Below, piece after piece: positions 36,862-62,100 of a stretch of DNA of 64,000 nucleotides. Position 1 is the stretch's first letter. Each line of letters starts with the position of its first letter. The notes beneath the pieces were generated by a model. That model had not been told where the DNA came from, made no database searches, and worked only from the letters and a program-made list of their open reading frames with translations. This DNA is from Pyrinomonadaceae bacterium (GTDB lineage Bacteria > Acidobacteriota > Blastocatellia > Pyrinomonadales > Pyrinomonadaceae): the NCBI GenBank assembly GCA_035697425.1, contig DASSCX010000255.1, positions 1,183-65,182 on the forward strand. The letters are read 5' to 3'. The translations under genes and the position numbers were made by a program.

Positions 36862-37356
36862 ATGCGACTGTTTCAACTTTTTGCGCGCGGCTCACGCAAA
36901 ATCATGCTTAAACCCGGCGAGTCGTTTCTGATCTTCAGGATGGCTTTGTGGGTTTCTTTGCTTTCCCTGGCAGTAAAGCTTCGACCCCTGCCCCGCGCCC
37001 TGGAGCTGATCGCCGCAAAACCTAAGACTCCGGCGACTGACCCTGCTGAGCCGTCCGAAGAAACGATGAACCGGCTGGCGCGCGCGATAGATTTGCTTCT
37101 TCGAACTGACCTGTTTGTCTTTAAGCCGATCTGTTGGAAGCGTGCTGCCGTCTTGCATCGCTATCTGACTCTAAGTGGGATCAATTCGCGAATCGTCTTC
37201 GGCGTCAGGCGCGGTGCGCAGGGCGAAGTCGACGGTCATGCCTGGCTCGAATCAAACGGCGCGCCGATTCTTGAACCTACCACTCCTAATTACAAAGTCA
37301 CCTACGCGTTCCCTTCCGACGATCCTTTCGAAGCCGATCTCGCTTCAATGTCGTAG
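36862..37356 (+). CDS. Lasso-peptide-biosynthesis B2-type protein (transglutaminase-like Cys peptidase, Transglut_core3)
   Basis: ICWKRAAVLHRYLTLSGINSRIVFGVRRGAQGEVDGHAWLESNGAPILE has the catalytic Cys, the GVR motif and the GHAW(L/V)E His motif of McjB-C/B2 proteins. Confidence 0.7.
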   Translation: MRLFQLFARGSRKIMLKPGESFLIFRMALWVSLLSLAVKLRPLPRALELIAAKPKTPATDPAEPSEETMNRLARAIDLLLRTDLFVFKPICWKRAAVLHRYLTLSGINSRIVFGVRRGAQGEVDGHAWLESNGAPILEPTTPNYKVTYAFPSDDPFEADLASMS

Positions 37357-43116: not shown

Positions 43117-43508
43117 ATTCCCTCCAGGGAAGCTTCCGAGAGCAAGCAGGCATTCACTGCTAGTTACTAGTAAGTAAGGGCGCAACACTCTGAGTGTTCA
43201 TCGTTTAGAATTCAGAGAAGCAGGAGCGATGATGAGCCAGCGGCCCCAGATAGACTAGATTATTCAAGTCCACCTGGACTGACATGGTGGTGTTGACTTC
43301 GAGAGCGTAGGGTTCACCCACGTGAGCATTCCTTGTAGCTGATCGGAAGATCCAATTACGATCTAACTGCTACTAATCAGGGCGAAACTGAGCGCATGAA
43401 GCAAAACATTTTGGCGCGAAAGGCCTGTTCAAGTCGAACGGCGAGAGAATAAACGCTCGCATGGAAGCTGTCAATTGACACATAAGTCTTCTATCGCGAA
43501 GACTACTC

Positions 43509-45998: not shown

Positions 45999-46038
45999 GC
46001 GCGCATCTTCACCTGCGTAAAAAAGCTTGTCAACGAGA

Positions 46039-46142
46039 AGAAGCGAAGGGGGAAAGGGGAACAGGGGAAAAGCCTACCCGTTTCTCGCCGCCCCTTTCCC
46101 CCGTTCCCCCGTTCCCCCGTTCCCCCTTTTCCCGTTCCCCTC
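46039..46142. repeat. G-tract / C-tract hairpin in the divergent promoter region
   Basis: GAAGCGAAGGGGGAAAGGGGAACAGGGGAAAAG faces CCCCTTTCCCCCGTTCCCCCGTTCCCCCGTTCCCCCTTTTCCCGTTCCCC. The minus strand carries at least seven G3-5 runs with 3-4-nt loops. Confidence 0.8.
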
Positions 46143-46158
46143 TTATACTCGCCGCTTA

Positions 46159-50081: not shown

Positions 50082-53000
50082 CTAAGGTAACCCTTCCACG
50101 TTAAAGTACGCCCGGAAGGTTCCGCCCTGCTGCACACCAAGCAGGAAGTGCACATCGATTGACGCCCCATTCGCGATCGCCCCACCGGGAATCGCTACCG
50201 TCGCCGACGAGTTTAAGCCACCACCATTCGGCTGCAGCAGTGGCGTCGGTTGTTCGATCATCAAACCCCTGACTGTCAACATTCCCAGGCTGGTTGTAAT
50301 GCTGAAGTCGGAACCATCAACGACGCGGACGTCTGCCTGAGATCCGCCCGGGCTGTAACCAGGACTGTTTAGTGTCGTGATGTCTACCACGCGGAAGCGA
50401 AGCCGCGTGATCGGCGCACCCGTTTGATTAGTGAAGCGTCGCCGCACCGAGAGGGTGCCGAGCGCGCCGTTGGTTACTGGTGTCAAATCGCGCACGCGGT
50501 TAGGGGCGGCCGCGGAAGAAGTCTGCGGCTCGATCAAGCCCGGCTTGATCGTGGAGTTCCTTTGAATCGGGCTCAACGTATTCTCAGGTCCGGGCGCGCC
50601 CAATTGCGATTGCACACCACCGTAGCTGGCGCCGTTTGTCGAAACAAAAACAAAGTCAGCGGCATTATTGTTAGTATCCTGCGGTAAACCTGTTACTAGT
50701 CTTCGCACGTACGCATACTCCCCGTCGTTTGCTCCATGCGATTGCAGGTTCGTGCCTTCGCGATAGAGATCGGCAGTCGCTCCGGCTACCGAACTCAAGC
50801 TAACCGCGTCGAGTCGTGTGGCGAGCGAGAAGTTGGAAATGTTGTCGCTTTGGAATAGAGCAATCGCGGAATTGTCAGGAATGTTAATTAGCCCTTCCAA
50901 GCCACGATACTTCCGATCGGCGCTGGCATATGTGTCGAGCGTGTATTCGCCGGTTGGTGTGATGCCATTGGGCGCTGGAGGCGCGAGCGGCTCATTTGTC
51001 AGCAAGTAGTGTCCGCGCGCCGGAATGACCGTCCCGTTGGGAATCACCGCGGCAATGTTTTCCAGCGTGCCTGAGCTATCCAGGTAAGAGAGGGCCCAGC
51101 CGCTCGTGCCGTCAACGGAATTCACGGTGATGGCCGCATCGGTGTTGTTGTAAAGTTCGATGTACTCATCAACTGAGCCATCCACTTGGCCGGGAACGAC
51201 GGAAGGCCCACGGAAGCGAAACTCACTAATGATCACCGAACCGACCGCTAAACCACCCAACGAGAAATAAGCAACCGGCATGTCGTGGTCCGAAATGCGC
51301 TCCGGCCGGTTGGAATCGCCGAAGTAGACTTGGGGAAAGTCGGCATTGTTCCGGCCGTAGGCAAAACGGTTAAGAATCGCGAACGCATCGTCGTTAACGA
51401 GCACATGATCGAGCGACTGGGCGTTACCGTCAAAAGTAAACGAATAGCGCTGATCAGAAGGCACTGTATTGATCAAATTCGTCAGATCCGGATTAACCAA
51501 GTCGCTGGAAGCGAGCACTACCTGATCTGCTGGAGTGGGCACGCCGGTGATGGTACCCATGCTGTCCACATAACCATCATTAAACTGAAACGCGTTGTAG
51601 TCGCCGACCGAAATGATCTTTTCGGAAGGATCAGTCGTCTGTCGCGCCTGGATCAGATTCGCAAGATACTCAGCCTGGGCGCGTCGTTTAGCGCGAACAC
51701 GCGCACCCTCAGTACCTGAACCGTTGGGAGTAAGATCATCAACTCCATTTAACGATCGCAAGTGATTCACAATCACCGTAAAGGCGAGCGTGCCTCCAGC
51801 AGGCCTGGCAATCGTGGCGCGCAAAACGAGAGGCGGCCGGTCGTTTAAGATCTCAGGTGAGCCAGTGTTGGGATTGATGTAAGTGTCAGTCAATCCAAAC
51901 TGGGTAACATCAACAACAGAAACCCGCGCGGCCTTCACGAGAAAACCAACGTCAATCAAACCGATGTCATTCCCTTCAACCAGATAGGCCTGATAGTTAG
52001 GGTTGGGCTCCATATTGGCTACGGCATCGTTGTTGACTTTGGTAGCCACCGCCTGGAGCGTGGCTAAATTCTCCATCTCAACTATGCCAATCACGTCGGG
52101 ACTGCGCATCACATTGCGAATCGCCAGCGATGCTTTGTTAAGTCGATTGTTGAAGGCAGTGGTGGTTAAAACCACATCGCCGCCGGGGTCGTCGACGTTA
52201 TTGTAGAAGCGCTGCATGTTGAAAGCGCCGACTGTTAGTTCGTTGGCGGTTTGATCGGGAACGGGCGTGAAAGTGGAAACTGAACCCACGCTCGGAGGCG
52301 TGGCCGGATCCGGGAGGATCGTATACGTGCGGAAACCAAAGTCCACTACACCGGTTATGCCGGTGACTATTGTTCCGCTAGTCAGGTTGATCGCTGTCGC
52401 CCCGGTTTGGCCGTCACTGTCAACACGCAAGCGTTCAGGGTTTTCATCAAAGCGCGGAATACTGCCTGGGGCGCCCGCGGGAAGCGGATCAGAGATGGCA
52501 ATTCCGGGCTCACGGAAAGGCCGAGCTACGCCCGTAACCACGCCATAGAAGACTCCGTTGGAGCTCGCGGTAGCGCTCGACTCAGTGATGTTTCCCTGCG
52601 TCGGTGCAATCGCGGTTAGCGAAGCTACAGTGACGCGCATGCCTTCGTATTCCTCGAGCGTGTCGAGCGGATTGGTCGTCTCAGACGCTTGGGTGGTCTC
52701 GGCGGCCGTAATTACCACCGGAGTCGGCAGCGGATTGCCGGTCGAAAGTTGCAAAACGGTTGGACCGGTGAGTTCTGTCAGCGGTGGACTGCTGGGATCT
52801 GCGGAAGGAATAAAATCAGAGACCGTTCCAGTGACTTGTACGCTATTGCCAAGCGCCGCCGCCGCCGGCGGCGCACTGGAAGTGAAAACAAAGATGCCTT
52901 CCGATGTGTTGGGATCGGCATCAACGGTGGCATCAGGCTCCTGAATAAAAAAGCCATTGCTCTTTAATCCGGTGACGACACCGGTAGTCGTTACTACTTG

Positions 53001-54209
53001 TGCCGCAAGTGGCGAAGTGGAGCCAGAGCCTTGGATCGTGTGAATCGGCGTGAGGGTCGCGTCGTCATTGTTGATAGTTCCCAAACCCTGCACGTCGCCG
53101 GGGTTCGCGTTGACGATGTTTGTTATGTTGACGAAGAAAGTTTCGTTGGGTTCGTTAGTCCCATCCCCGTTGACCGTGACAGAAAAGCTAGCCGAGGTAT
53201 TGCCGGCAGTAATAGTTCTTCCAATTTCAGAGTTGGCTACATAGTCGTTATCTTCAGTTGCTGGATTATCGTCCTGGGCAGTGCCATCCGCCGTGGCGAC
53301 GTCAAAAGTTACGTCGCTCGCCCCGGGAATCGTCAAACTCACTTGAAAGGTAAAAGTTGTGGTGCCGGCGTTGCCTTCAGCCAGCGACACGTCGTTGATA
53401 CTGAGAATAGGAAGTGTGGGTCCCGTGCTAACGCTGATGTCATCTACACCAATCCACTCATCATTGCCGACAGCATTAGTCGACATAATGCGGACTTGAA
53501 CTTCTGCTTGATTCTCTGCGGCTACCGGCAGCGCAACGCTAACTGGCGTCACCTGAGTACAGAGACTCGGCCCTGCCGAGGCATCCGCCACATAACCGGC
53601 GGCAATGTTTGTAAAGTTGCCGCTATTGCCGACGCGATACTGCAATGCGATCTGCTGGATAGAGTTATCCGAAGTGCAGTCGATATCGCGCAGATTGTAA
53701 GAGACGTTAATTCCCGACTGCCCCGTAGTGTTCAAGTAAAGAATGATGTGCGGCGCGTCGGCCGTGCCCGATCCTTGCAGGGCGATGGTTGAATCTGTAG
53801 CCGGACCACCCGTCTGCGAAGTGGTGTGAAACTCGCCCACGTCACCGTTTGTGATTGCCGTCGAGGTTTGGTTAGCAAAAACGGTTAGGTCGCCGGCAAC
53901 GCCGCTGGCCCCAGTGAGAATTGTCTGCGGGTCGGTTCCCGTTGCAGTCGTTAAGTCCTGTCCCAGAAACCCCTGAATACCAGCCACGCCCGTCCAGATG
54001 TCGTTCGTCGTGATAAGGCCATTATTCGACCAGTTTTGGCTGAACGGCAGCGTTTGTGTTGAAGCATCGGCCAGAGCAACCGAGAAGGACGACAGTCGCA
54101 GCAACGAACTTCCTGGCAGCGATAGCACCAACAATGCGCCTAAAGTCAGGGCAAGAAACTGACGGCGTTTGGTAGCACGTCTTTGACGGCTGCTCGGCAA
54201 GGTAAACAC
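50082..54209 (-). CDS. ExeM/NucH-like extracellular nuclease: N-terminal domain, Calx-beta, endonuclease/exonuclease/phosphatase (EEP) domain, LTD plus shared C-terminal module
   Basis: It has a signal peptide. The Calx-beta pattern is SINDVSLAEGNAGTTTFTFQVSLT...DNDY. The EEP motifs are LTVGAFNMQRFYN, IVEMEN, GDYNAF and SDHDMPVAYF. The shared-module motifs are ISEFRFRGP...DEYIELYNN, GAPGPENTLSPIQRN and TRLRFRVVDITT, ending NVEGLP. Confidence 0.8.
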   Translation of the reverse strand: MFTLPSSRQRRATKRRQFLALTLGALLVLSLPGSSLLRLSSFSVALADASTQTLPFSQNWSNNGLITTNDIWTGVAGIQGFLGQDLTTATGTDPQTILTGASGVAGDLTVFANQTSTAITNGDVGEFHTTSQTGGPATDSTIALQGSGTADAPHIILYLNTTGQSGINVSYNLRDIDCTSDNSIQQIALQYRVGNSGNFTNIAAGYVADASAGPSLCTQVTPVSVALPVAAENQAEVQVRIMSTNAVGNDEWIGVDDISVSTGPTLPILSINDVSLAEGNAGTTTFTFQVSLTIPGASDVTFDVATADGTAQDDNPATEDNDYVANSEIGRTITAGNTSASFSVTVNGDGTNEPNETFFVNITNIVNANPGDVQGLGTINNDDATLTPIHTIQGSGSTSPLAAQVVTTTGVVTGLKSNGFFIQEPDATVDADPNTSEGIFVFTSSAPPAAAALGNSVQVTGTVSDFIPSADPSSPPLTELTGPTVLQLSTGNPLPTPVVITAAETTQASETTNPLDTLEEYEGMRVTVASLTAIAPTQGNITESSATASSNGVFYGVVTGVARPFREPGIAISDPLPAGAPGSIPRFDENPERLRVDSDGQTGATAINLTSGTIVTGITGVVDFGFRTYTILPDPATPPSVGSVSTFTPVPDQTANELTVGAFNMQRFYNNVDDPGGDVVLTTTAFNNRLNKASLAIRNVMRSPDVIGIVEMENLATLQAVATKVNNDAVANMEPNPNYQAYLVEGNDIGLIDVGFLVKAARVSVVDVTQFGLTDTYINPNTGSPEILNDRPPLVLRATIARPAGGTLAFTVIVNHLRSLNGVDDLTPNGSGTEGARVRAKRRAQAEYLANLIQARQTTDPSEKIISVGDYNAFQFNDGYVDSMGTITGVPTPADQVVLASSDLVNPDLTNLINTVPSDQRYSFTFDGNAQSLDHVLVNDDAFAILNRFAYGRNNADFPQVYFGDSNRPERISDHDMPVAYFSLGGLAVGSVIISEFRFRGPSVVPGQVDGSVDEYIELYNNTDAAITVNSVDGTSGWALSYLDSSGTLENIAAVIPNGTVIPARGHYLLTNEPLAPPAPNGITPTGEYTLDTYASADRKYRGLEGLINIPDNSAIALFQSDNISNFSLATRLDAVSLSSVAGATADLYREGTNLQSHGANDGEYAYVRRLVTGLPQDTNNNAADFVFVSTNGASYGGVQSQLGAPGPENTLSPIQRNSTIKPGLIEPQTSSAAAPNRVRDLTPVTNGALGTLSVRRRFTNQTGAPITRLRFRVVDITTLNSPGYSPGGSQADVRVVDGSDFSITTSLGMLTVRGLMIEQPTPLLQPNGGGLNSSATVAIPGGAIANGASIDVHFLLGVQQGGTFRAYFNVEGLP

Positions 54210-54497
54210 GTGTGATTCCTTTCGAATTGTAAAGTACGAGAGTTTGGTTTCGATTAACGCAACCTTTAATTGCGTCGTCCTGTGCAGATGCGATTAATAA
54301 ACGAAGATCGCGACGACTTGAAGCGATTTCTGGCAGACCACGGGGAGATTCCTTCAGAACTGGTTAGCGGTCGGCTGAGCCACCTTATATCACAGTGTGC
54401 TTGCTGCAGATGAGAAAAGTGTACTCACGCCTAAAGATGATTTTTCCCCAAAGGGTTCCACCCCTTGAGTAACGTCGGAGCGTTGCGGAGCCGCTGT

Positions 54498-54767
54498 TTA
54501 TGCCAGCAGGCGATGCGCCCCGAGCGAAGTTAGCAGTCGTTTGATCGACTCTGCGGCATGTTCTTCACTTACGTCGTAGCGATCGCAAATCTCGCGAGCG
54601 ATCTCTGACGTAGTTTGACCGCGTTCCAGTCCAAGCCATACGAGCATTGCGGTCTCGTTCAGCGTGTAGTAACGCTTAGTATTCAGATCGACGAGCACAG
54701 CTTCACGACCGTCGAATTCGGTATAGACGATATGGCTGTGTGGGTGTGGTGTGGCAGAAGCGTTCAA
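54498..54767 (-). CDS. PqqD-family peptide-binding protein (RiPP recognition element)
   Basis: It is 89 aa. KRYYTLNETAMLVWLGLERGQTTSEIAREICDRYDVSEEHAAESIKRLLTSL fits the PqqD pattern. It lies 24 nt downstream of the radical SAM gene. Confidence 0.75.
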   Translation of the reverse strand: MNASATPHPHSHIVYTEFDGREAVLVDLNTKRYYTLNETAMLVWLGLERGQTTSEIAREICDRYDVSEEHAAESIKRLLTSLGAHRLLA

Positions 54768-54791
54768 GCGATTCTCTTTTCTAGTGTGAAA

Positions 54792-55886
54792 TCAGTCGCT
54801 GGTAGTGGCGGGCGCCACGATTACCGGCAGCGAACGTCCGTTGGCCGCCTGACCGTTAAGTCGCGCACTGCGCCAGGGGATTTTTCCAAAACTCTGCAGG
54901 CAGAATAGACACGGTGACCCGGTATAAAGATCAGGCGTCTCACCGCGCGCTGCGATTTCGGCCAAAGCTTGCCGGCGTCGTTCGAGTTGCTGCTGCGCGA
55001 GGGCTTGCAAACGCGCATAGCCAACCGCAAAACTCTCATGATGCAGATCTGCCAAAACATCAGGTTCGCCGTCAGCGTTGCGATAACCTGCAAGGTTGCA
55101 GCAAAGCGTCAGACGACCGCGCCAATCGACATTGCAACTGGTAGTTTTTAGCGGCGAACAAGGAACTTCGGAATCGATGTCGTAGTAACCCGCGGCGATG
55201 CCGATCGGCATCTTGAGAATCTTCGCGAGTCCCATCACTTCCTGTTCCGCATGACGTTGCTCCTCAAGCGTCAAGGCTGACTCGTTCTCGGCTTCAGCCG
55301 ATGTTGGCAATAAATGAGAAAAATGCAGCGCGGCAGCACCGAGACGCGCGGCCAGCAAAGCAATCTGTTCCAACTCGGTCATCGTATCGCGCCGGATTCC
55401 GACTTTGAACACGAACGGGATGTTCTGCACGTGACAGCGAGTTACCGCCCGGATCACGCGATCGAACGATCCGGCGCCGCGCCAGAAGTCGTGCGTTTCG
55501 CGCGTGGCTCCGTCTACACTGAAGGCCACGAGTCGCACGGCTTGCTTGTTAGCCATGATCGCCGGATAAACCCGATCGAAGTGCCAACCGTTAGTGACGA
55601 AGCTGCATTGCATGCCTTCGCTTGCCACCGCGGCAATCATTTCGTTGAAGTGCGGGTGGAGCGTTACTTCGCCGCCCGTGAAGGTTACATAGTCGATCTG
55701 GTAAGCGTCGCGCGCCTCGCGCACAATTCGTCCCAGCAACTCGGCGGGAAAGTAGTTCGCTTTGGTGTGATAGAGCGCGTCCTCATCGCGCATGCAATAG
55801 CTGCAGTGGAGATTGCAGATGTTCGTCAGCTCGACCGTTAATCGAACTGGATCCGGGCGCTGGGGAACTTCGGTGGTGACAGTCAC
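54792..55886 (-). CDS. Radical SAM enzyme with Cys-rich SPASM/twitch-like C-terminal domain
   Basis: The CxxxCxxC motif lies in LTNICNLHCSYCM. C-terminal cysteines are CSPLKTTSCNVDWRGRLTLCCNLAGY and SPCLFC. It is 364 aa. Confidence 0.85.
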   Translation of the reverse strand: MTVTTEVPQRPDPVRLTVELTNICNLHCSYCMRDEDALYHTKANYFPAELLGRIVREARDAYQIDYVTFTGGEVTLHPHFNEMIAAVASEGMQCSFVTNGWHFDRVYPAIMANKQAVRLVAFSVDGATRETHDFWRGAGSFDRVIRAVTRCHVQNIPFVFKVGIRRDTMTELEQIALLAARLGAAALHFSHLLPTSAEAENESALTLEEQRHAEQEVMGLAKILKMPIGIAAGYYDIDSEVPCSPLKTTSCNVDWRGRLTLCCNLAGYRNADGEPDVLADLHHESFAVGYARLQALAQQQLERRRQALAEIAARGETPDLYTGSPCLFCLQSFGKIPWRSARLNGQAANGRSLPVIVAPATTSD

Positions 55887-55895
55887 GAAACCTTT

Positions 55896-56810
55896 TTACT
55901 CTGTCATGTAGAGGGCGAGCAAGTCAGCCGCTCGCTCCGGCTGAAGCAACAGGTCACGACCCGCCGCCAGTTCATAAGCACGACATTGATTTGCCAGCCG
56001 CGCCAGCACTCGCAAATATTCGGGCGCAGTGCAAGTGTCGTAAGTCGCCCAGGGACAATGTCTCACGAGTTGCTCCATCGCAGCCCGAGAATCGACCTTA
56101 TTGATCTTCGTTTCGGCCGCCGCCACTACTTGGGGGAAGAAGAGGACGCGCGGTTGGCAGCTTGCCGCCCGACTTTCAGGGAAAACAGTTTCCGGTTCGA
56201 GGCGGCGTTTCGAAGGATCGGAAGCTACTGGAGCACCCAGGGCGGCGCTCAACCTCAGGCTGCTGCTACCAACTACGGAAGTGTCAGCTACCGCAAACAA
56301 TCGGCGAAGCCCTTCAACTTCCAGCGTCGCAGGAGTTTCACGTAAAACTACCATGTCGTCCGACAAGTAGAGCCAGCCCGCCTCCGTGAGCCGCAACGTC
56401 AACGTGGTCTTGCCGCTGCCGGAAGCGCCAACGAAAAGTGCGCCAGCCTGCGAAAGAGGTTCAACGGCCGCGGCGGCATGCACATCAAAAACGCCGGCGC
56501 GGCGCAGCGCCGCTTGCAATCCATACGAAAAAGCATTTACAAGCGCGACTGGGTGGCGCGCTTGTTCAGTTACGCCAAACCAAACCTCCACTTGTCGCTC
56601 CGCTGGAGGGCAGATGTGAACCAGAGACTCGTCGACCGTCAAAAAGTATTGGCTCTGATCGGTGTAACAGTGGCCGCGATTGATGGCGAACGATTGCAAC
56701 CCGGAGGGAATGTTAGGAAGCGCCGCCCGTCTTACGGTTAATGTTATCGAGGGCTGGTCGACGGGCGCGAACGTGTGTACGAGGTGAAAGCCGTTTAGGA
56801 AACTTGCCAC
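55896..56810 (-). CDS. HPr-kinase-C-terminal-like P-loop protein (HprK-related kinase)
   Basis: GASGSGKTTLTLRLTEAGWLYLSDDMVVL mirrors the HprK pattern GxSGxGKS...LVxDD. It lies 9 nt upstream of the radical SAM gene. Confidence 0.65.
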   Translation of the reverse strand: MASFLNGFHLVHTFAPVDQPSITLTVRRAALPNIPSGLQSFAINRGHCYTDQSQYFLTVDESLVHICPPAERQVEVWFGVTEQARHPVALVNAFSYGLQAALRRAGVFDVHAAAAVEPLSQAGALFVGASGSGKTTLTLRLTEAGWLYLSDDMVVLRETPATLEVEGLRRLFAVADTSVVGSSSLRLSAALGAPVASDPSKRRLEPETVFPESRAASCQPRVLFFPQVVAAAETKINKVDSRAAMEQLVRHCPWATYDTCTAPEYLRVLARLANQCRAYELAAGRDLLLQPERAADLLALYMTE

Positions 56811-56958
56811 CCACTGTGCTTCCCAATCGCCCAGGGTATGAACGCGCAGGAGCCGGCCGGCAATATTGTAATGACTAATCAGACCAGAAGTTGCGTTGGC
56901 TTGAAACTGCGATTCGAGGATTCACCAGGCACGGACCAAACACCAGAGCCTGCAGTTG

Positions 56959-57141
56959 TTAGGTTGTGGTGCTTTCGATGGTGGGCGCCTGGAAAAATGT
57001 GGTTGCTTCCAGAACCTCTATCGGCACCGATATGGCGGGTTCGATAAATGGTTTTTTTGGCGACGCCTTGGTTGATTCAGATTCTTCAGTCATCTGCTCA
57101 GATAGAGAATCATCGGATGTAATGGCATTGAGCATATTCAA
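56959..57141 (-). CDS. Candidate RiPP precursor peptide A1 (60 aa from the TTG at 57141; the ORF is open to 57171)
   Basis: GGAGG lies 8 nt upstream of the TTG. It has an acidic/Ser-rich N-terminal part and the C-terminus KPFIEPAISVPIEVLEATTFFQAPTIESTTT. It is a paralog of the peptide at 57448..57618. Confidence 0.65.
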   Translation of the reverse strand: MNMLNAITSDDSLSEQMTEESESTKASPKKPFIEPAISVPIEVLEATTFFQAPTIESTTT

Positions 57142-57195
57142 GTCTAGAACCTCCGAGGATAATTGTGCCAATGTTGAACTGCTGTTAACCCTATG

Positions 57196-57337
57196 TCAAC
57201 CGCCAGAACATCCGTGGTTACCGACACAACCGGTGCAACAAACAATTTCTTCACTGTGGCTCGCTGGCAGCTACTTCAGTTTGTGAAGTTTCCTCACTAA
57301 CCTGATCGCTGGGTGTGCGAGTAGATTGCTTGATCAA
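57196..57337 (-). pseudogene. Frame-split third peptide gene: leader-like ORF (57251..57337) plus a Cys-rich ORF in another frame (57196..57270)
   Basis: The TTG context AACCTTGATCAAGCAA matches that of A2. Frame 0 gives LIKQSTRTPSDQVSEETSQTEVAASEPQ followed by a stop. The +1 frame gives ..SHSEEIVCCTGCVGNHGCSGG followed by a stop. Confidence 0.35.
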
Positions 57338-57447
57338 GGTTGAGGTATCGTAAAACATTGATCGCTGCTTTGGCTTCGCTGCCGGCACCGGTCAGGGTTC
57401 TGGCCAGTGCCGGCAATTAAGCAGACACACACACGCAAACGCAAACG

Positions 57448-57618
57448 CTATACAGTGGTGGTATCGACAGTAGGAGCCTGGAAAAAGGTTGTCGCCTCGA
57501 GCACATCTTCAGGAGTTGAGACGGTCGGCTCTACGAACGGCAGCTTCGACTCGGTTTTTGACAGTTCTGTCTGTTCGTTGACTTGCTCGCTGACAATAAG
57601 GCTGTTTTGCTTAATCAA
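57448..57618 (-). CDS. Candidate RiPP precursor peptide A2 (56 aa, TTG start; not in the supplied ORF track)
   Basis: My own minus-strand translation is (M)IKQNSLIVSEQVNEQTELSKTESKLPFVEPTVSTPEDVLEATTFFQAPTVDTTTV. GGAG lies 8 nt upstream and overlaps the TGA of the upstream gene. Confidence 0.65.
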   Translation of the reverse strand: MIKQNSLIVSEQVNEQTELSKTESKLPFVEPTVSTPEDVLEATTFFQAPTVDTTTV

Positions 57619-57630
57619 GGTTCAGTCTCC

Positions 57631-58515
57631 TCACATTTTGATTGTCTGGCTGGTTGGCTGGGCTAGTACGAGACGCAAAGGTCGGGTTTCGTACGTTTGT
57701 AGATCGGTACGTTGATACAAACGAATGTTCGGCGAAAGCGTCCTCACCACTTGCTCAATTGTGGCGTTTTTTAAGTCAACATTAACAACTTCCGAAGAGT
57801 CATATTTCATCTCGAAGGGAATGTCAACCTTGGTTGCAATCTCGTAAAGTACTGCGGTCAGGGGTTGTTTGACCGCGTGCACAGTAAACTGATTCCGCTC
57901 GATTTTGACGCTTAATGACGTCTCTTGTTCGTCCTTTGCGGCGCGTTCGGTTCCTTCTTCGGTGTCTCCGGAAATCAGGATAGCTTCGGAATCGCCGCGC
58001 ACCACAGCCGACTCTGACGGTGGTGGCTCGTTGAGGGCATAAAGATAAAGAGCAACTATCTTCGCCATGGTGCTGCCGTCACCACTGATCTCGTAATCAG
58101 CATAGGGCTGCGGCGCAATCATGCGCACGGCCCCCTCGAGAGGCATGCTCTCAAATTCGATCGAGACGCGGGCCTTCTGCATTACCGGACTCAATAGAAC
58201 CGGAATTTCAAACTCTTTGCTGAGTTTTGCCGCAATCTCCGCAACGGAAGCGGCATTCGCTTTCAAGTCCACAGCGCGCACGGGACCGCTGGCAACCTTC
58301 AAAGTAAATTTGCCTTTAGCTTCTTTGCCTTTCGGTGTTTCGCCAGGCGTGGCTGTTTGCTTATCCGCTGGTTTCTCGTTTGCCGCCGCAGGTTTGGCTT
58401 GGGTGGTTGGGGTTGCGGGCGGCGTTGTTTGATTGCGACTTTGGGCCAGCAGTGTGCCCGGGAGGATAAGTAATAGAATTAATCCTAACAAGCGCCTTGA
58501 AAAACTTTCCTGCAT
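57631..58515 (-). CDS. Secreted protein with two STN-like (secretin/TonB N-terminal-like) segments, unknown function
   Basis: It has a signal peptide, a Pro/Thr/Lys-rich linker and two segments resembling STN domains (VDLKANAASVAEIAAKLSKEFEIPVLL; LTAVLYEIATKVDIPFEM..VDLKNATIEQVVRTL). Confidence 0.45.
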   Translation of the reverse strand: MQESFSRRLLGLILLLILPGTLLAQSRNQTTPPATPTTQAKPAAANEKPADKQTATPGETPKGKEAKGKFTLKVASGPVRAVDLKANAASVAEIAAKLSKEFEIPVLLSPVMQKARVSIEFESMPLEGAVRMIAPQPYADYEISGDGSTMAKIVALYLYALNEPPPSESAVVRGDSEAILISGDTEEGTERAAKDEQETSLSVKIERNQFTVHAVKQPLTAVLYEIATKVDIPFEMKYDSSEVVNVDLKNATIEQVVRTLSPNIRLYQRTDLQTYETRPLRLVLAQPTSQTIKM

Positions 58516-58793
58516 TCGAACGTACCTCTTGAAAATGAATCCTTGAACTATCTTTCGCAGACCTCCAGCCTGGCCGCCTGGGTCAACTTTGAGTATTTGG
58601 GGACTAAAAGATTATCTTTGGCTGTCGAATAGTTGCCCCATCCCGAGACATGAAACCGCCGATTTACGGCGGCCGGGGCGTCTCTGGAAGATTCCCTGTC
58701 GCACGTTACTCTTGACGTGTAGGAATTTCCGTGTGGTCGCGACAGTAACACACTTATCGTCCGCCCAGCAATAACTTCCACAAATTTTTGGTC

Positions 58794-60056
58794 CTAGTGA
58801 AAATGGCTGGGCCCACCTGTGACTACCAATCGCAACGGACGCACAAGGTAATAAATAAAATTCAACGCCGGGGGCAATTTCAGCCGCACCAAGTCTTTCT
58901 CGTTCGGTGTGAATGTGAATCTTAAGTAGTTAAGTTTGTCGCGCAGCCGGCGCCGCGCGCGTAGCTGAAACCGGAAATAGCCTGACATCCCTGTGCGCGT
59001 GAGGGCCGGAGTGAAAAGATCGCGTATCACATCGCGGGCCAAAGCCGCCACTGAAGCGTCGGCATTCAATGCCGCCTCCACGCGTACCGGCAATGGTGCT
59101 TCAAGTAAATCGGCGGCCAAACGTAACCCCAGAAAAAGCATCCGCTCATTGCCAGTAGCACGGGCCCGGCGAATCAACTCTTCCCAGTTGAGTTCCGTGT
59201 GCGCAACCAGACCGGCAATGTCGCAAATCCAGGCAAGTCGCTCCCAGAGATGTTTCGTACCATGAATGCAGAGCGCCAAAACCAGATCTTCGTTAGCCGG
59301 CACCTTGATACTCATAGTTTCCAGGCGTGCATTCACCAAACGTGACCAAAAAGCATCCGCCTCGAACGGTCGCGCAAAGGTTGGCGCACTAACGGTCCAG
59401 TGAAGCTCGACGATCATCCGGTTACGCTCACGCGTAAAAGGAAGGTTGCACTGAGTTCGCAACAGCACCGCCTGTTGACCATCAGTAAGTGGCGGCAATT
59501 GCGCATAACCTTCGGCAATAAGTAAGTCGCGAGCTCTCAATACGTCACGCGGGTGTACCAGAATGTCGAGATCGCTGAACTGGCGCAGTGCGACATCTCC
59601 GTAAAGCTGCAATGCGAGCGCCGGACCTTTATAAGGCACTGCCTGCACATCATGGTCGGCAAACAACGCCAGCAATCTCTGCAGCTCGTGAGTGAGAAGG
59701 ATGTTCAACGCGGAAACACGTTGAAAAGCGACTCGCAGATGCTGCCGGATTCCCGCCGGCACAGCATTAGGACAGACGTCGTTCAGATGCCAGTGCAGTA
59801 ATGGCTGCAAACCGTGGCGATCTGCCAGCTGCAAAACGAGATCCCAGTCGAGTGGTTGCGACACGAGATCCTGAATTCGTTTTCTTTGCGTCTCATCAAG
59901 AGACGCACGCGCGCAAGTAAGCAGCAAGCTGTGCTCCGGACGCGCCGCAGGAAAACCGCTTGCTACAACAGATGTCGCTGCCTCTCGGTACAGTACGGGA
60001 GCGGTCACGACCCCATTCACCTCATAGAAACTGTGTTGTGAAGAAGGCGAGCTCAT
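58794..60056 (-). CDS. Uncharacterised nucleotidyltransferase family protein (NTP_transf_5-like)
   Basis: It is 420 aa. The patterns LLLTCAR...DWDLVLQLADRHGLQPLL...VPYKGPALA..LYGDVALRQFSDLDILV are typical of PF14907-type proteins, which neighbour PqqD/HprK-like genes. Confidence 0.6.
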   Translation of the reverse strand: MSSPSSQHSFYEVNGVVTAPVLYREAATSVVASGFPAARPEHSLLLTCARASLDETQRKRIQDLVSQPLDWDLVLQLADRHGLQPLLHWHLNDVCPNAVPAGIRQHLRVAFQRVSALNILLTHELQRLLALFADHDVQAVPYKGPALALQLYGDVALRQFSDLDILVHPRDVLRARDLLIAEGYAQLPPLTDGQQAVLLRTQCNLPFTRERNRMIVELHWTVSAPTFARPFEADAFWSRLVNARLETMSIKVPANEDLVLALCIHGTKHLWERLAWICDIAGLVAHTELNWEELIRRARATGNERMLFLGLRLAADLLEAPLPVRVEAALNADASVAALARDVIRDLFTPALTRTGMSGYFRFQLRARRRLRDKLNYLRFTFTPNEKDLVRLKLPPALNFIYYLVRPLRLVVTGGPSHFH

Positions 60057-60158
60057 TCTTTATCAACCTTGTCATTTATCAACCTTGAAAGCGGTTGCTA
60101 CCTCTCCCGTACTGTACCGAGTAGCGCTTACAGGGAACACGGTCACGTTTCTTACGAG

Positions 60159-61958
60159 TTACTCGTTCACTTTCAAAACTGCGAGGAACGCTTCCTGCGG
60201 AATCTCCACACGTCCGACTTTCTTCATCCGCTTCTTGCCTTCCTTCTGCTTCTCTAACAGTTTGCGCTTACGCGTGATGTCGCCGCCGTAGCATTTTGCA
60301 ATCACGTTTTTACCCATCGCCTTCACCGTTTCCCGCGCAATTACTTTGTTTCCGATCGCCGCTTGGATCGGAACTTCAAACATCTGGCGCGGAATCAACT
60401 GCTTCATTTTTTCCGCCAGTGCGCGTCCTTTCGCTTGCGACGTGCTGCGATGAAGGACTAAAGAAAGTGCGTCGACTGGCTCATCGGCAACCAAAATATC
60501 AAGCTTCACCAGATCGCTCTCCCAATAACCGGCAAGATTGTAGTCAAGCGAAGCGTAGCCGCGTGACACTGACTTCAGACGATCGTAAAAGTCCAAAACA
60601 ATTTCGTTCAAAGGCAATTCATAGGTCAACATCACGCGGTTCGCAGCAATGTATTCGAACCCCTTTTGCACACCCCGCTTTTCTTCCAGCAGCGGCAGAA
60701 TGCCGCCGAGGTATTCATCAGAAGTAAGAATCGTAGCGCGAATTATTGGCTCTTCAATTTTCACGATCCGTCCCGGATCCGGCATCTTGGCCGGCGAATC
60801 GATTTCGACGACTTTGCCGTCGGTGGTGTGCACTACGTAACGAACGCCCGGCGCAGTCGTAATCAGATCGAGATTGAATTCACGCTCCAAACGCTCCTGC
60901 ACCACTTCCATGTGCAACAAGCCGAGGAAGCCGCAGCGAAATCCAAAGCCCAGCGCTGTCGATGATTCGGGTTCATAAAAGAAGGACGCATCGTTCAGCC
61001 GCAGTTTGTCCAATGCATCTCGAAGCTCTTCATACTGATTGGTGTCGACCGGATAAAGACCGGCGAAGACCATCGGCTTAATCTCCTCAAAACCAGGAAA
61101 CGGTTCCGAAGTAGGGCGCGCACTTTCAGTAATGGTGTCGCCGATTTGCACATCTGCTACTTCCTTAATCGACGCAGTTAAGAATCCGACTTCGCCTACC
61201 CCAAGTTTGTCGATAGGCGTGGGACGCGGACGATTAACACCCAGCGTTTCAACCTGGTAATCGCGTCCGGTGTTAAAGAAGCGGATTTTCATTCCCGGTC
61301 GAATCATGCCGTCAATCACGCGAAACAAAACAATCACGCCGCGATACGAGTCGTACCAGGAATCGAAGATCAGTGCCTTGAGCGGAGCTTCGGGATCCCC
61401 TTTCGGCGACGGCACATCGCGCACGATCGCTTCCAGCACTTCATGTACGCCCGCGCCGGTCTTGGCGCTGGTAAAGACCGCGTTGTGAGTCTCCAACCCG
61501 ATGAGATGTTCGATCTGTTCGACTGCCCGATCCGGTTCCGCACCCGGTAAGTCGATCTTATTAATGACGGGAATTAGTTCCAGATTGTTTTCAAGGGCCA
61601 GATAAGTGTTGGCGAGGGTCTGCGCTTCAACTCCCTGCGAAGCGTCCACAATTAGCAACGCGCCTTCACATGCTGAAAGCGAGCGCGAGACTTCATAAGA
61701 GAAATCGACGTGACCGGGGGTGTCGATGAGATTCAGAACGTACGATTTGCCATCCTCTGCCTTGTAATCAAGGCGCACGGCGTGCGACTTGATGGTAATG
61801 CCGCGCTCTCTTTCGAGGTCCATATTGTCGAGCACCTGCTCGGACATGTCGCGCCCGGTCACGGCCCCCGTCAACTCAAGCAGCCGATCCGCGAGGGTAG
61901 ACTTGCCGTGATCGATGTGGGCGATGATGGAAAAATTGCGAATCTGTTCGACGTTCAT
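60159..61958 (-). CDS. lepA: Translation elongation factor 4
   Basis: [27 protein letters not shown] and later motifs. It is 600 aa from the ATG at 61958. The upstream 28 codons of the ORF translate a repeat. Confidence 0.95.
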
Positions 61959-61968
61959 TTCATCAAAT

Positions 61969-62100
61969 GTACTTAGTTCTTTGTGCTTTGTACTTTGTAT
62001 TTTGTTCGTATTGCCCAGCTTGATCGGTTGATCGATAGACAAGCGTAGTTATCAAACAAAGGCCAAAGGCTAAAGTACAAAGACCGTTTTGTTGTAACAA
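61969..62100. repeat. ACAAAGN-heptad leader plus complementary arm upstream of lepA
   Basis: On the mRNA strand the sequence ACAAAAT-ACAAAGT-ACAAAGC-ACAAAGA-ACTAAGT lies 11-45 nt upstream of the ATG. The distal arm (62051-62100) carries the complement (CTTTGTACTTTAGCCTTTGGCCTTTGTTTG). Confidence 0.7.

What the first reader, a model, noticed from the sequence alone, without database searches (positions are those of the whole stretch)
54498..60056. Non-canonical RiPP-like operon: nucleotidyltransferase, secreted protein, three tandem peptides, HprK-like kinase, radical SAM/SPASM, PqqD
All genes lie on the minus strand with tight spacing. The secreted-protein TGA overlaps the SD of peptide A2. 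The kinase-rSAM gap is 9 nt and the rSAM-PqqD gap is 24 nt. A PqqD-type RRE combined with a radical SAM/SPASM maturase is the hallmark of rSAM-modified RiPPs. HPr-kinase-like proteins and NTP_transf_5 proteins are known accessory genes in some lasso-peptide clusters; in paeninodin-type clusters the kinase phosphorylates the peptide's C-terminal Ser. They also occur in the uncharacterised HprK-related/PqqD neighbourhoods defined in TIGRFAMs. This locus has no lasso cyclase (Asn-synthetase-like C protein) and no ABC exporter. The two intact peptides contain no Cys, so the usual thioether (sacti/ranthipeptide) chemistry does not apply to them. Both end in Thr-rich tails (ESTTT, DTTTV), which are plausible kinase targets. 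I do not recognise this gene combination plus this peptide family as a described RiPP class.
Basis: partly seen in the sequence, partly recalled or inferred. Interest (0 to 1): 0.85.

Follow-up and report, generated by a model that had tools for sequence, protein, structure and literature searches.

The report
Lasso-like peptide operon with radical SAM
This soil acidobacterium carries a conserved operon for small modified peptides that keeps most of the lasso-peptide toolkit but has a radical SAM enzyme where the ring-closing enzyme would be, so it probably makes a peptide type nobody has characterised.

Summary
All the ORFs are on the minus strand at the stated coordinates with the stated gaps. 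Two intact precursor genes are present, plus one decayed copy.

The family calls hold at superfamily level only. No curated NCBIfam model is passed, and the "SPASM" label is not confirmed by any HMM.

The operon is a conserved unit. Relatives of the rSAM occur in 198 species-level genomes, almost all Pyrinomonadaceae. In 80 fetched loci the kinase (78), PqqD (77), precursors (74), secreted protein (73) and NTP_transf_5 (67) co-occur; most absences coincide with contig ends.

- **Leader:** the box F(-17)VEP(-14)xV(-12)…T(-2)T(-1) fits the lasso YxxPxL…T(-2) register. The predicted core is FFQ plus 8–12 variable residues.
- **Peptidase:** a lasso B2 leader peptidase lies in 44 of 49 loci with enough flank. 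In this window it is 17 kb away, at 36862–37356.

No lasso cyclase was found in the window or in any locus.

Best reading: a lasso-derived RiPP pathway (B1, B2, kinase, nucleotidyltransferase) in which an rSAM enzyme, not a cyclase, modifies the core. The chemistry is unknown. I found no description of it in the searchable literature.

The parts
58794..60056 (-). NTP_transf_5 nucleotidyltransferase-fold protein (420 aa), first gene of the operon. It carries a PYKGP...FSDLDILV (G-x...DxD) motif.
   Evidence: PF14907 at 217.5 bits, E 2.7e-64. DxD at residues 162-164. A homologue is present in 67 of 80 loci. The family role is inferred from PsmN of the pseudomycoidin lasso cluster, which adds hexose to a phosphoserine (PMC6993621).
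57631..58515 (-). Secreted protein of unknown family (294 aa). It has a signal peptide, a disordered Pro/Thr/Ala-rich linker and two tandem alpha/beta domains (about residues 67-160 and 200-285). Its stop codon abuts the ribosome-binding site of precursor 1.
   Evidence: Only a sub-threshold FecR_C hit in Pfam and no NCBIfam hit. AF2 model with mean pLDDT 70 and both domains mostly at 78-94. Foldseek gives no match at E<=0.001, only weak secretin N0/N1-like matches (7ah9_5A prob 0.92, 6rwk prob 0.75). 289 database relatives, all 'hypothetical'. Present in 73 of 80 loci.
57448..57618 (-). Precursor peptide 1 (56 aa, TTG start). Leader ...KLPFVEPTVSTPEDVLEATT; predicted core FFQAPTVDTTTV.
   Evidence: Codon-position entropy pattern across 88 homologous genes.
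57144..57388 (-). Decayed precursor copy. A leader-like segment is followed by an in-frame TGA, then KKLFVAPVVSVTTDVLAVDIG.... It has lost T(-2) and the FFQ core.
   Evidence: Similar decaying duplicates occur in L003 and L010.
56959..57135 (-). Precursor peptide 2 (58 aa from the ATG at 57135; the mechanical ORF extends to 57171). Leader ...KKPFIEPAISVPIEVLEATT; predicted core FFQAPTIESTTT.
   Evidence: P0241 is a 58-aa database protein 100% identical to it.
55896..56810 (-). HprK-like peptide kinase (304 aa).
   Evidence: TIGR04352 E 1.8e-12 (46.9 bits, cut-off 200) and PF07475 at 18.7 bits. H111, G128, G133-K134 and D151-D152 are conserved in at least 90% of 79 homologues; G131 and T135 are read from the window sequence. 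The spacing matches the catalytic motif reported for lasso-peptide kinases (BsfK H148-G163-G166-G168-K169-S170-D186-D187; PMC10368454). Present in 78 of 80 loci.
54792..55886 (-). Radical SAM enzyme (364 aa) with no fused RRE. It has C24x3C28x2C31 and a C-terminal domain with invariant C243, C251, C262, C263, C326 and C329 (plus C151).
   Evidence: PF04055 at 90.8 bits. All 66 NCBIfam hits are far below their cut-offs; the best are W_rSAM_matur at 92 against 380 and MftC at 81 against 265. Invariant residues in A1. AF2 pLDDT 74; the closest folds are BlsE, SkfB, DesII, PqqE, SuiB, CteB, anSME and EpeE. No SPASM HMM hit.
54498..54767 (-). Discrete PqqD-family RRE (89 aa), closest to lasso B1 chaperones.
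   Evidence: PF05402 at 60.6 bits. The best NCBIfam hit is lasso_PqqD_Strm at 52.2 bits (cut-off 70). The three best PDB sequence hits are all lasso B1 proteins: TbiB1 5v1u, TfuB1 6jx3_B and 9x90_B. Present in 77 of 80 loci.
36862..37356 (+). Lasso B2-type transglutaminase-like leader peptidase (164 aa). It lies 17 kb from the operon in this genome, on the opposite strand as in other genomes. It is the probable trans-acting leader peptidase of the system.
   Evidence: PF13471 at 58.2 bits. NF033537 lasso_biosyn_B2 at 52.2 bits, above its cut-off of 33. C91, H126 and E138 are invariant in 53 homologues. It is 50-64% identical to the B2 genes found in the fetched region around the operon in 52 of 80 loci, which is 44 of the 49 loci with at least 6 kb of downstream sequence. 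Those B2 genes occur in at least six different gene orders.

Best explanation
This is a biosynthetic operon for a ribosomally made, post-translationally modified peptide. It descends from, or shares parts with, paeninodin/pseudomycoidin-type lasso-peptide clusters. It has no lasso cyclase and uses a radical SAM enzyme instead.

Proposed sequence of events:
1. Two 56-58-aa precursors are translated. (Shown: the ORFs are conserved and under codon-level purifying selection.)
2. The discrete PqqD/B1 protein binds the leader box F(-17)-V-E-P(-14)-x-V(-12). (Inferred from the lasso register and B1 similarity.)
3. While the leader is still attached, the HprK-like kinase phosphorylates a Ser/Thr of the core. 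NTP_transf_5 then decorates the phosphate, for example with hexose as PsmN does. (Inferred by homology.)
4. The rSAM enzyme, presented with the peptide by PqqD, abstracts a hydrogen and modifies the core. The most likely site is the nearly invariant N-terminal Phe1-Phe2(-Gln3). A cyclophane-type C-C or C-O cross-link, or an epimerisation, are the leading guesses. (Inferred; the chemistry is unknown.)
5. The B2 cysteine protease, encoded 17 kb away here but within the fetched region around the operon in most relatives, cuts after T(-2)-T(-1). This releases an 11-15-residue product that starts FFQ.
6. Export, and the role of the co-translated secreted two-domain protein, are unknown.
For: **A conserved unit.** Relatives of the rSAM are encoded in 198 species-level genomes. 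In the 80 best loci tblastn finds the kinase in 78, PqqD in 77, precursors in 74, the secreted protein in 73 and NTP_transf_5 in 67. In 64 loci all six components are present, mostly in the same order.

**Precursors are real.** There are 93 precursor ORFs, with codon-position entropy 0.53/0.29/1.42.

**Lasso-type leader.**
- F at -17 in 89 of 94 peptides, P at -14 in 94 of 94, V/I/L at -12 in 89 of 94 and T at -2 in 88 of 94, with fixed spacing.
- This matches the YxxPxL motif at -17 to -12 and the Thr(-2) described for lasso leaders (PMC10368454).
- A relaxed version of the pattern occurs only three times in the six-frame translation of the 64-kb window, and two of those are the precursors.

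**Lasso-type enzymes.**
- The PqqD's best PDB matches are all lasso B1 proteins.
- The B2 protein passes the curated NCBIfam lasso_biosyn_B2 cut-off. It stays within the fetched region around the operon through several rearrangements.
- The kinase motif has the same spacing as the lasso kinase motif.
- The nucleotidyltransferase has the DxD motif of its fold.

**Cluster composition parallels lasso clusters.** Lasso clusters with K, N and sulfotransferase genes are documented (PMC8498205; PMC6993621). Tailoring genes here co-vary with core type. A sulfotransferase-like gene is present exactly in the loci whose cores lack Asp/Glu. A GT1 plus an unknown gene accompany the cores ending D-x-x-D-[VL].

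**No cyclase.** No Asn-synthetase-like protein was found among the window's large ORFs. None was found among representatives of the not-yet-annotated 420-900-aa ORF families in the 80 loci.

**rSAM type.** The rSAM fold is nearest to twitch/SPASM enzymes, several of them peptide maturases (SkfB, PqqE, SuiB, CteB, EpeE).
Against: - No enzyme activity, product or transcript has been observed. Every functional step is inferred.
- The rSAM, PqqD and kinase all score below the curated cut-offs of every named family.
- B2 is not in the operon in this genome or in its closest relatives L002, L003 and L008. Its participation here rests on orthology.
- The C-terminal residue is not Ser, as it is for paeninodin-type kinase substrates, so the phosphorylation site is unknown.
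- The sulfotransferase correlation comes from one clade and may be a single evolutionary event.
- No exporter is encoded.
- Conserved chromosomal synteny fits a physiological role as well as it fits an antibiotic.
Confidence: 0.7

Rival explanations
1. It is an ordinary lasso-peptide pathway whose cyclase (and exporter) are encoded elsewhere in the genome, as the B2 gene is here. The rSAM is only a tailoring enzyme.
For: The leader register, B1, B2, kinase and nucleotidyltransferase are all lasso-type. B2 shows that a component can be displaced by 17 kb.
Against: No Asn_synthase-type protein was found in the 64-kb window. None was found within about 8 kb of the operon in any of the 80 loci. 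B2, by contrast, is found in 44 of 49 loci with enough flank.

The predicted core starts with Phe, not Gly/Ala/Ser/Cys. It is mostly only 11-13 residues long. The acidic residue sits at position 6, 8 or 9, and it is missing altogether in 8 loci. The rSAM is as conserved as the other core genes (80 of 80 loci by construction, with the kinase always adjacent).
Confidence: 0.05
2. It makes a peptide-derived small molecule or cofactor, in the manner of PQQ (PqqA/D/E) or mycofactocin (MftA/B/C). The invariant Phe-Phe(-Gln) would be cross-linked by the rSAM and excised, and the rest of the peptide discarded.
For: The combination rSAM + discrete PqqD + small peptide is the PQQ/mycofactocin logic. MftC and PqqE are among the better rSAM HMM and fold matches. 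Only FFQ is invariant in the core. The operon is chromosomal and sits in conserved synteny with housekeeping genes.
Against: MftC and PqqE scores are far below their cut-offs: 81 against 265 and 51 against 381. The PqqD is closest to lasso B1, not to PqqD or MftB. A lasso B2 leader peptidase, a peptide kinase and tailoring genes that co-vary with the variable tail suggest the tail is part of the product. Several precursors with different tails coexist in one operon. No PqqB/C- or MftD/E/F-like genes were seen.
Confidence: 0.12
3. The peptide and the enzymes are not substrate and maturases. The small ORFs encode unmodified secreted or regulatory peptides, and the rSAM/PqqD/kinase act on another target, such as the secreted protein.
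For: No modification has been observed. The secreted protein is translationally coupled to precursor 1 and has no known function.
Against: The precursors have no signal peptide. They carry a leader box in the lasso B1/B2 register. Discrete PqqD proteins are peptide-leader chaperones. The core type co-varies with accessory tailoring genes.
Confidence: 0.06
4. It is a sactipeptide or ranthipeptide (thioether) cluster.
For: It has an rSAM with a Cys-rich C-terminal domain and an RRE. SkfB and CteB are among the fold neighbours.
Against: None of the 68 distinct predicted cores contains Cys, apart from one obviously decayed copy. No SPASM HMM hit. StsB and SkfB models score far below their cut-offs.
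Confidence: 0.01

Closest known systems
Paeninodin / pseudomycoidin / Bsf-type phosphorylated lasso-peptide clusters (A, B1, B2, C, D, K, ±N, ±sulfotransferase)
   Same: - Leader with an aromatic-x-x-P-x-(L/V) box at -17 to -12 and Thr at -2.
- A discrete PqqD-type B1.
- A transglutaminase-like B2 that passes NF033537.
- An HprK-like kinase with the same catalytic motif.
- An NTP_transf_5-type 'N' protein.
- A sulfotransferase-like gene in one sub-clade.

   Different: - No lasso cyclase and no ABC exporter.
- The core starts Phe-Phe and is mostly 11-13 residues long.
- The acidic residue is not fixed at positions 7-9 and is sometimes absent.
- The C-terminal residue is not Ser.
- An rSAM enzyme and a secreted two-domain protein are core components instead.
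PQQ (PqqA/PqqD/PqqE) and mycofactocin (MftA/MftB/MftC) systems
   Same: A small peptide, a discrete PqqD-family chaperone and a twitch/SPASM-type rSAM without a fused RRE. PqqE and MftC are among the nearest HMM and fold matches.
   Different: Scores are far below the equivalog cut-offs. The precursors lack the E-x3-Y motif and the C-terminal G-V-Y motif. Kinase, nucleotidyltransferase and B2 peptidase are present, while the other pqq and mft genes are absent.
rSAM cross-linked RiPPs acting on aromatic residues (triceptides/3-residue cyclophanes, streptide, darobactin-type)
   Same: An rSAM maturase plus a leader-bound peptide. The conserved aromatic motif (Phe-Phe-Gln) could fit an aromatic-X-X cyclophane site. 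This resemblance is from my own knowledge and was not tested.
   Different: There is no sequence membership in any curated maturase family (WgkB and the nif11-class maturase score far below their cut-offs). The C-terminal Cys pattern is non-canonical. Some cores have Gly at position 3. The chemistry is untested.
[quoted passage not shown]
   Same: RRE-Finder reported about 300 lasso-type discrete RREs next to rSAM enzymes and treated them as non-lasso contexts (PMC7470986). This operon is of that general kind.
   Different: That survey did not describe this family, its precursors, the B2 linkage, or the kinase, nucleotidyltransferase and secreted protein set.
TIGRFAMs HPr-rel-A system (TIGR04352 kinase A, TIGR04353 PqqD)
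   Same: The kinase's best NCBIfam hit is the HPr-rel-A kinase model, and the PqqD also gets a weaker hit to the HPr-rel-A PqqD model (its own best is lasso_PqqD_Strm).
   Different: Scores are 46.9 against 200 and 23.9 against 35, so these proteins are not members. An rSAM is present here.

Membership tests
Lasso peptide biosynthetic cluster | Precursor leader with the YxxPxL box at -17 to -12 and Thr at -2 | tested here: met
   F at -17 in 89 of 94 peptides, P at -14 in 94 of 94, V/I/L at -12 in 89 of 94 and T at -2 in 88 of 94, with fixed spacing. The motif definition is from PMC10368454. Phe and Val replace Tyr and Leu.
Lasso peptide biosynthetic cluster | B1 (PqqD-type RRE) | tested here: inconclusive
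   The top three PDB hits are lasso B1 proteins. However, lasso_PqqD_Strm scores 52.2 bits, below its cut-off of 70.
Lasso peptide biosynthetic cluster | B2 transglutaminase-like Cys protease | tested here: met
   NF033537 at 52.2 bits, above its cut-off of 33, and PF13471 at 58 bits. C91, H126 and E138 are invariant. It lies 17 kb from the operon in the window and within the fetched region in 44 of 49 informative loci.
Lasso peptide biosynthetic cluster | Lasso cyclase (Asn-synthetase-like C protein) | tested here: not met
   No PF00733 hit among the window's large ORFs. None among representatives of the not-yet-annotated 420-900-aa ORF families in the 80 loci. The rest of the genome was not available.
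Lasso peptide biosynthetic cluster | Core with a small N-terminal residue and Asp/Glu at position 7-9 | tested here: not met
   Core position 1 is Phe in 88 of 94 peptides. The acid is at position 6, 8 or 9, and is absent in 8 loci. Core length is mostly 11-13 residues.
Radical SAM/SPASM peptide maturases (sacti-/ranthipeptide type) | CX3CX2C radical SAM cluster motif | tested here: met
   C24, C28 and C31 are at least 90% conserved (absent only from the N-terminally truncated P0039). PF04055 scores 90.8 bits.
Radical SAM/SPASM peptide maturases (sacti-/ranthipeptide type) | SPASM domain recognisable by HMM (PF13186 / TIGR04085) | tested here: not met
   No hit at E<=0.01 for the whole protein. 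No NCBIfam hit at E<=10 for the C-terminal 139 aa. Six invariant Cys are present in a non-canonical spacing. The fold neighbours are twitch/SPASM enzymes.
Radical SAM/SPASM peptide maturases (sacti-/ranthipeptide type) | Cys residues in the core as thioether donors | tested here: not met
   The intact cores contain no Cys.
PQQ / mycofactocin systems | PqqE or MftC equivalog and the matching precursor motif | tested here: not met
   TIGR02109 scores 50.8 against 381 and TIGR03962 scores 80.7 against 265. The precursors lack the E-x3-Y and C-terminal GVY motifs.
HPr-rel-A system (TIGR04352/TIGR04353) | Scores above the curated cut-offs for the kinase and PqqD models | tested here: not met
   46.9 against 200 and 23.9 against 35.
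Lasso-peptide precursor kinases (PadeK/ThcoK/PsmK/BsfK type) | Catalytic motif H...GxxGxGK(S/T)...DD | tested here: met
   H111, G128, G133-K134 and D151-D152 are conserved in at least 90% of 79 homologues; G131 and T135 are read from the window sequence. The spacing is as in BsfK.
Lasso-peptide precursor kinases (PadeK/ThcoK/PsmK/BsfK type) | Phosphorylates the precursor (C-terminal Ser, or Ser3) | not testable with these tools
   The window's precursors end in Thr and Val. Across the family the last residue is N, T, V, L or P. The site and the activity need experiment.
Triceptide / cyclophane-forming rSAM RiPPs | rSAM-installed aromatic-to-C-beta cross-link on an aromatic-X-X motif | not testable with these tools
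   The Phe-Phe-Gln motif is only suggestive, and Gly occurs at position 3 in 2 of the 94 peptides.

The most novel reading that the evidence does not exclude
This is a new RiPP class. Lasso-peptide leader recognition, leader removal and phospho-/glyco-tailoring have been uncoupled from the lasso cyclase and re-wired to a radical SAM enzyme. That enzyme installs a non-lasso modification on an invariant N-terminal Phe-Phe(-Gln). The product is a short anionic peptide that is vertically conserved across Pyrinomonadaceae. It therefore probably serves the producer's own physiology (signal, metal or surface function) rather than acting as a strain-specific antibiotic.
Probability: 0.4. Interest if true: 0.75.

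Novelty: new variant of a known kind. Interest (0 to 1): 0.62.

Why it matters
If the reading is right, it is a natural example of RiPP machinery being exchanged between classes. A lasso-type leader, chaperone and peptidase would be feeding a radical SAM enzyme. That is directly useful for combinatorial RiPP engineering.

The rSAM family belongs to no curated group, so its chemistry is likely to be new. Acidobacteriota are abundant in soil but rarely cultured, and their peptide natural products are almost unknown. An operon present in about 200 species-level genomes is a well-defined target for heterologous expression.

It also cautions that annotation pipelines will label the distant B2 gene 'lasso peptide biosynthesis B2 protein' in genomes that probably make no lasso peptide.

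Tried and rejected
**Regulatory and RNA features**
- A sigma-70 promoter and intrinsic terminator scan of 54000-60400 gave counts at chance level.
- A sigma-54 promoter pattern gave 24 hits against 37 expected, none placed usefully.
- RNA folding of the regions after precursor 1 and precursor 2 gave z-scores of +0.35 and +2.2. There is no attenuator-like structure.

**Family and structure searches that found nothing**
- SPASM assignment: no HMM support.
- Secreted protein: Foldseek against the PDB gave no match at E<=0.001. The secretin-N0/FecR_C-like idea remains only a weak lead.
- B2 and kinase against PDB sequences: no meaningful hits.
- Sulfotransferase-like protein profile against the PDB: no hits.

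**Neighbouring genes**
- The large downstream protein (50082-54209) was considered as a cluster member. It is ExeM/NucH-like and syntenic in only 28 loci of one clade. The 'family' that single-linkage clustering built around it is heterogeneous. I treat it as a neighbour.
- The genes after B2 in other loci are housekeeping (MutS, GH3, an SBP, Sua5).

**Literature**
- Six literature searches found no description of this gene set or peptide family. The library is incomplete, so this does not prove it is unpublished.

**Tools not run**
- The whole-library HMMER representative search, the metagenome contig scan and the viral contig scan. None would have changed the verdict.

Full report
**1. Observation**

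- NTP_transf_5, 58794-60056.
- A 294-aa protein with a signal peptide, 57631-58515.
- Peptide 1, 57448-57618.
- A decayed peptide copy, about 57144-57388.
- Peptide 2, 56959-57171.
- Kinase, 55896-56810.
- rSAM, 54792-55886.
- PqqD, 54498-54767.

Peptide 2 probably starts at the ATG at 57135. That gives 58 aa, and a database protein of exactly that length and sequence exists (P0241). The 9-nt and 24-nt gaps are correct, and so is the TGA/Shine-Dalgarno overlap before peptide 1. The middle peptide copy has an in-frame TGA and has lost the EATTFFQ segment, so it is a pseudogene.

The window comes from a Pyrinomonadaceae MAG (Acidobacteriota, Blastocatellia). The secreted protein is 100% identical to 'VFH15_14070 [Pyrinomonadaceae bacterium]' on a 72-kb contig.

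The operon sits between lepA (60159-62042) and a large ExeM/NucH-like extracellular nuclease (50082-54209). The wider context is ordinary chromosomal genes: gyrA, the hut genes, G6PD, dnaX.

**2. Family assignments**

| Protein | Best evidence | Passes a curated cut-off? |
|---|---|---|
| NTP_transf_5 | PF14907, 217 bits | yes (Pfam) |
| rSAM | PF04055, 91 bits; best NCBIfam W_rSAM_matur 92 vs 380, MftC 81 vs 265 | Pfam only |
| PqqD | PF05402, 61 bits; lasso_PqqD_Strm 52 vs 70 | Pfam only |
| Kinase | PF07475 18.7 vs 33.3; TIGR04352 E 1.8e-12, 46.9 vs 200 | no |

The kinase has the catalytic motif in the register reported for lasso-peptide kinases. H111, G128, G133-K134 and D151-D152 are conserved in at least 90% of 79 homologues, and G131 and T135 complete the motif in the window protein (BsfK motif in PMC10368454).

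The rSAM has C24x3C28x2C31 and six further invariant Cys (C243, C251, C262, C263, C326, C329). No SPASM HMM matches it, not even against the isolated C-terminal domain. Its AF2 model (pLDDT 74) is closest to twitch/SPASM enzymes, several of which are peptide maturases: BlsE, SkfB, DesII, PqqE, SuiB, CteB, anSME and EpeE. The family calls therefore hold at superfamily level, with 'SPASM' unconfirmed.

**3. Is it a unit?**

A scan of one genome per species found 198 genomes encoding a relative of the rSAM. Eighty loci were fetched, nearly all Pyrinomonadaceae with a few Thermoanaerobaculia. tblastn with the window's proteins finds:
- kinase in 78 loci
- PqqD in 77
- precursors in 74
- secreted protein in 73
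- NTP_transf_5 in 67

Most absences coincide with contig ends. Sixty-four loci have all six components. The dominant order is NTP5-SEC-precursor(s)-kinase-rSAM-PqqD.

The precursors are clearly coding. Across 88 genes, the entropy at codon positions 1/2/3 in the conserved box is 0.53/0.29/1.42.

**4.

*(a) The leader has the lasso register.* The conserved part of the precursor is not the C-terminal tail. It is a 17-residue box, F-V-E-P-x-V-S-V-P-V-D-V-L-E-A-T-T, followed by an almost invariant F-F-Q and then 8-12 variable residues. There are 68 distinct cores of 11-15 aa. The box has:
- F at -17 in 89 of 94 peptides
- P at -14 in 94 of 94
- V/I/L at -12 in 89 of 94
- T at -2 in 88 of 94

This is the register of the lasso-peptide leader: YxxPxL at -17 to -12 and Thr at -2 (PMC10368454). 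A relaxed form of the pattern occurs only three times in all six frames of the window, and two of those are the precursors.

*(b) The PqqD is closest to lasso B1 proteins.* Its three best PDB matches are TbiB1, TfuB1 and 9x90_B.

*(c) A lasso B2 peptidase belongs to the system.* Clustering all ORFs of the 80 loci revealed a 160-aa protein within the fetched region around the operon in 52 loci. That is 44 of the 49 loci with at least 6 kb of downstream sequence. It is often immediately after PqqD on the opposite strand, and it stays with the operon through at least six different gene orders.

This protein is a lasso B2 leader peptidase. It scores 58 bits on PF13471 and 52 bits on NF033537 'lasso peptide biosynthesis B2 protein', above that model's cut-off of 33. 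C91, H126 and E138 are invariant.

In this window the orthologue (50-64% identical) is at 36862-37356, on the opposite strand to the operon as elsewhere, but 17 kb away. In relatives such as L005, L009-L011 and L020, B2 directly follows the nuclease gene. In this window and in the closest relatives L002, L003 and L008, extra genes have been inserted there, including large membrane proteins.

*(d) There is no lasso cyclase.* No Asn-synthetase-type protein was found in the window. None was found among representatives of the not-yet-annotated 420-900-aa ORF families in the 80 loci. The genes beyond B2 are housekeeping.

**5. Accessory genes co-vary with the core**

A sulfotransferase-like gene lies between rSAM and PqqD in nine loci. 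It carries the motifs HSSRCGSTLL and LYRDPVETIVS, but only a sub-threshold Pfam hit and no PDB hit.

All seven of those loci with a visible precursor have cores with no Asp or Glu (FFQAATSGATN and similar). No locus without that gene has such a core, apart from L072, whose contig ends 165 nt after the rSAM.

A GT1 glycosyltransferase plus an unknown protein accompany cores ending D-x-x-D-[VL]. These are single-clade correlations, so they may each reflect a single event. Even so, they are what one expects if the variable tail is part of the product and is tailored.

Sulfotransferase, kinase and nucleotidyltransferase genes are the documented accessories of Firmicute and proteobacterial lasso clusters (PMC8498205). 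PsmN, an 'uncharacterised NTP transferase', is required for adding hexose to the phosphoserine of pseudomycoidin (PMC6993621).

**6. Most likely mechanism**

This is a lasso-derived RiPP pathway without a cyclase.
- PqqD/B1 binds the leader box.
- The kinase phosphorylates a Ser/Thr of the still leader-bound core. B1 accelerates this step in the Bsf system.
- NTP_transf_5 decorates the phosphate.
- The rSAM, which has no RRE of its own, is served by PqqD and modifies the core. The invariant Phe1-Phe2(-Gln3) is the most likely site.
- B2 cuts after T(-2)T(-1) and releases an 11-15-mer.

Shown here: gene content, conservation, motif registers and family similarities. Inferred: every catalytic step. 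The rSAM chemistry is a guess (cross-link or epimerisation). Export, and the role of the secreted protein, are open. That protein has two alpha/beta domains and only weak secretin-N0-like structural matches.

**7. Rival explanations**

- *A true lasso pathway with a remote cyclase.* Unlikely. The core starts with Phe, is short, has no fixed acidic residue, and no cyclase appears in 80 loci although B2 does.
- *A PQQ/mycofactocin-like peptide-derived small molecule.* Possible, since FFQ is the only invariant core element and the operon looks vertically inherited. The lasso-type B1/B2, the kinase and the tail-specific tailoring argue against it.
- *Thioether RiPPs.* Excluded by the Cys-free cores.

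**8. Novelty**

Six full-text searches found no description of this gene set or peptide family. All database homologues of the secreted protein and the precursors are 'hypothetical'.

The RRE-Finder survey noted about 300 lasso-type discrete RREs beside rSAM enzymes without a cyclase (PMC7470986). The general phenomenon has therefore been glimpsed, but this family has not been described there.

I rate it a new variant of a known kind: an RRE-dependent, rSAM-modified RiPP. It has an unusual and well-supported hybrid architecture and a clear experimental path.

Noticed in passing
window 50082-54209 (-): A 1375-aa secreted protein resembling ExeM/NucH extracellular endonucleases (NF033681 at 152 bits, below its cut-off of 300; weak LTD, Calx-beta and EEP hits). 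It follows PqqD in the same orientation in 28 loci of one clade and lies between PqqD and B2 there. It is probably a syntenic neighbour rather than part of the pathway.
   Followed up: partly
window 46027-47970 (+), 47967-49940 (+), 44211-45998 (-): Two paralogous polytopic membrane proteins of about 650 aa, plus a third of 595 aa, with large soluble C-terminal parts and no Pfam or NCBIfam hit. Homologues of the pair lie next to the operon in 7 of the fetched loci (L002, L003, L008, L015, L019, L023, L079). In this genome they are part of the block separating the operon from B2.
   Followed up: partly
L048, L057, L062, L064, L067, L073, L075, L078, L080 (between rSAM and PqqD, e.g. L064:9134-10120): A sulfotransferase-like gene (motifs HSSRCGSTLL and LYRDPVETIVS; Pfam Sulfotransfer_3 at only 21 bits). 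It occurs exactly in the loci whose predicted cores lack any Asp/Glu (FFQAATSGATN type). This suggests O-sulfation replaces the acidic residue at core position 6. It is one clade, so possibly one event.
   Followed up: partly
L012, L014-L016, L024, L035, L042, L043, L046, L051: A GT1 glycosyltransferase (TuaH-like, sub-threshold) and an unknown 380-470-aa protein are inserted next to NTP_transf_5 in 10 loci. The cores in these loci mostly end D-x-[AS]-D-[VL].
   Followed up: partly
window 57144-57388 (-); L003:6494-6673; L010:6571-6699: Decaying duplicate precursor genes (in-frame stops, lost core) sit beside intact ones. 13 of 74 loci have 2-3 precursor ORF copies (a few of them decayed), often with different tails. 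This indicates birth-and-death turnover of precursors.
   Followed up: partly
window 57415-57440 (-): A GT-rich simple repeat (GTTTGC GTTTGC GTGTGTGTGT) lies directly after the stop codon of precursor 1. It has no predicted stable RNA structure.
   Followed up: partly
window 54792-54840 (-), C-terminus of the rSAM: The extreme C-terminal tail of the rSAM carries an invariant R-x-L-P-V motif (R351, L353, P354, V355). It follows a variable, low-confidence linker and lies beyond the last Cys pair. It may be a docking motif for a partner protein.
   Followed up: no
window 39136-43188 (-) and 37475-38803 (-): A 1350-aa protein with a proprotein-convertase P-domain and a CarboxypepD_reg domain, and a 442-aa Lamin-tail-domain protein, lie between the operon and B2. 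Their relation to the system is unknown.
   Followed up: no
L065 (JAJVHZ010000042.1): A complete copy of the operon sits on a contig binned as 'Gammaproteobacteria bacterium'. Its rSAM is 61% identical to the window's, so this may be mis-binning rather than transfer.
   Followed up: no
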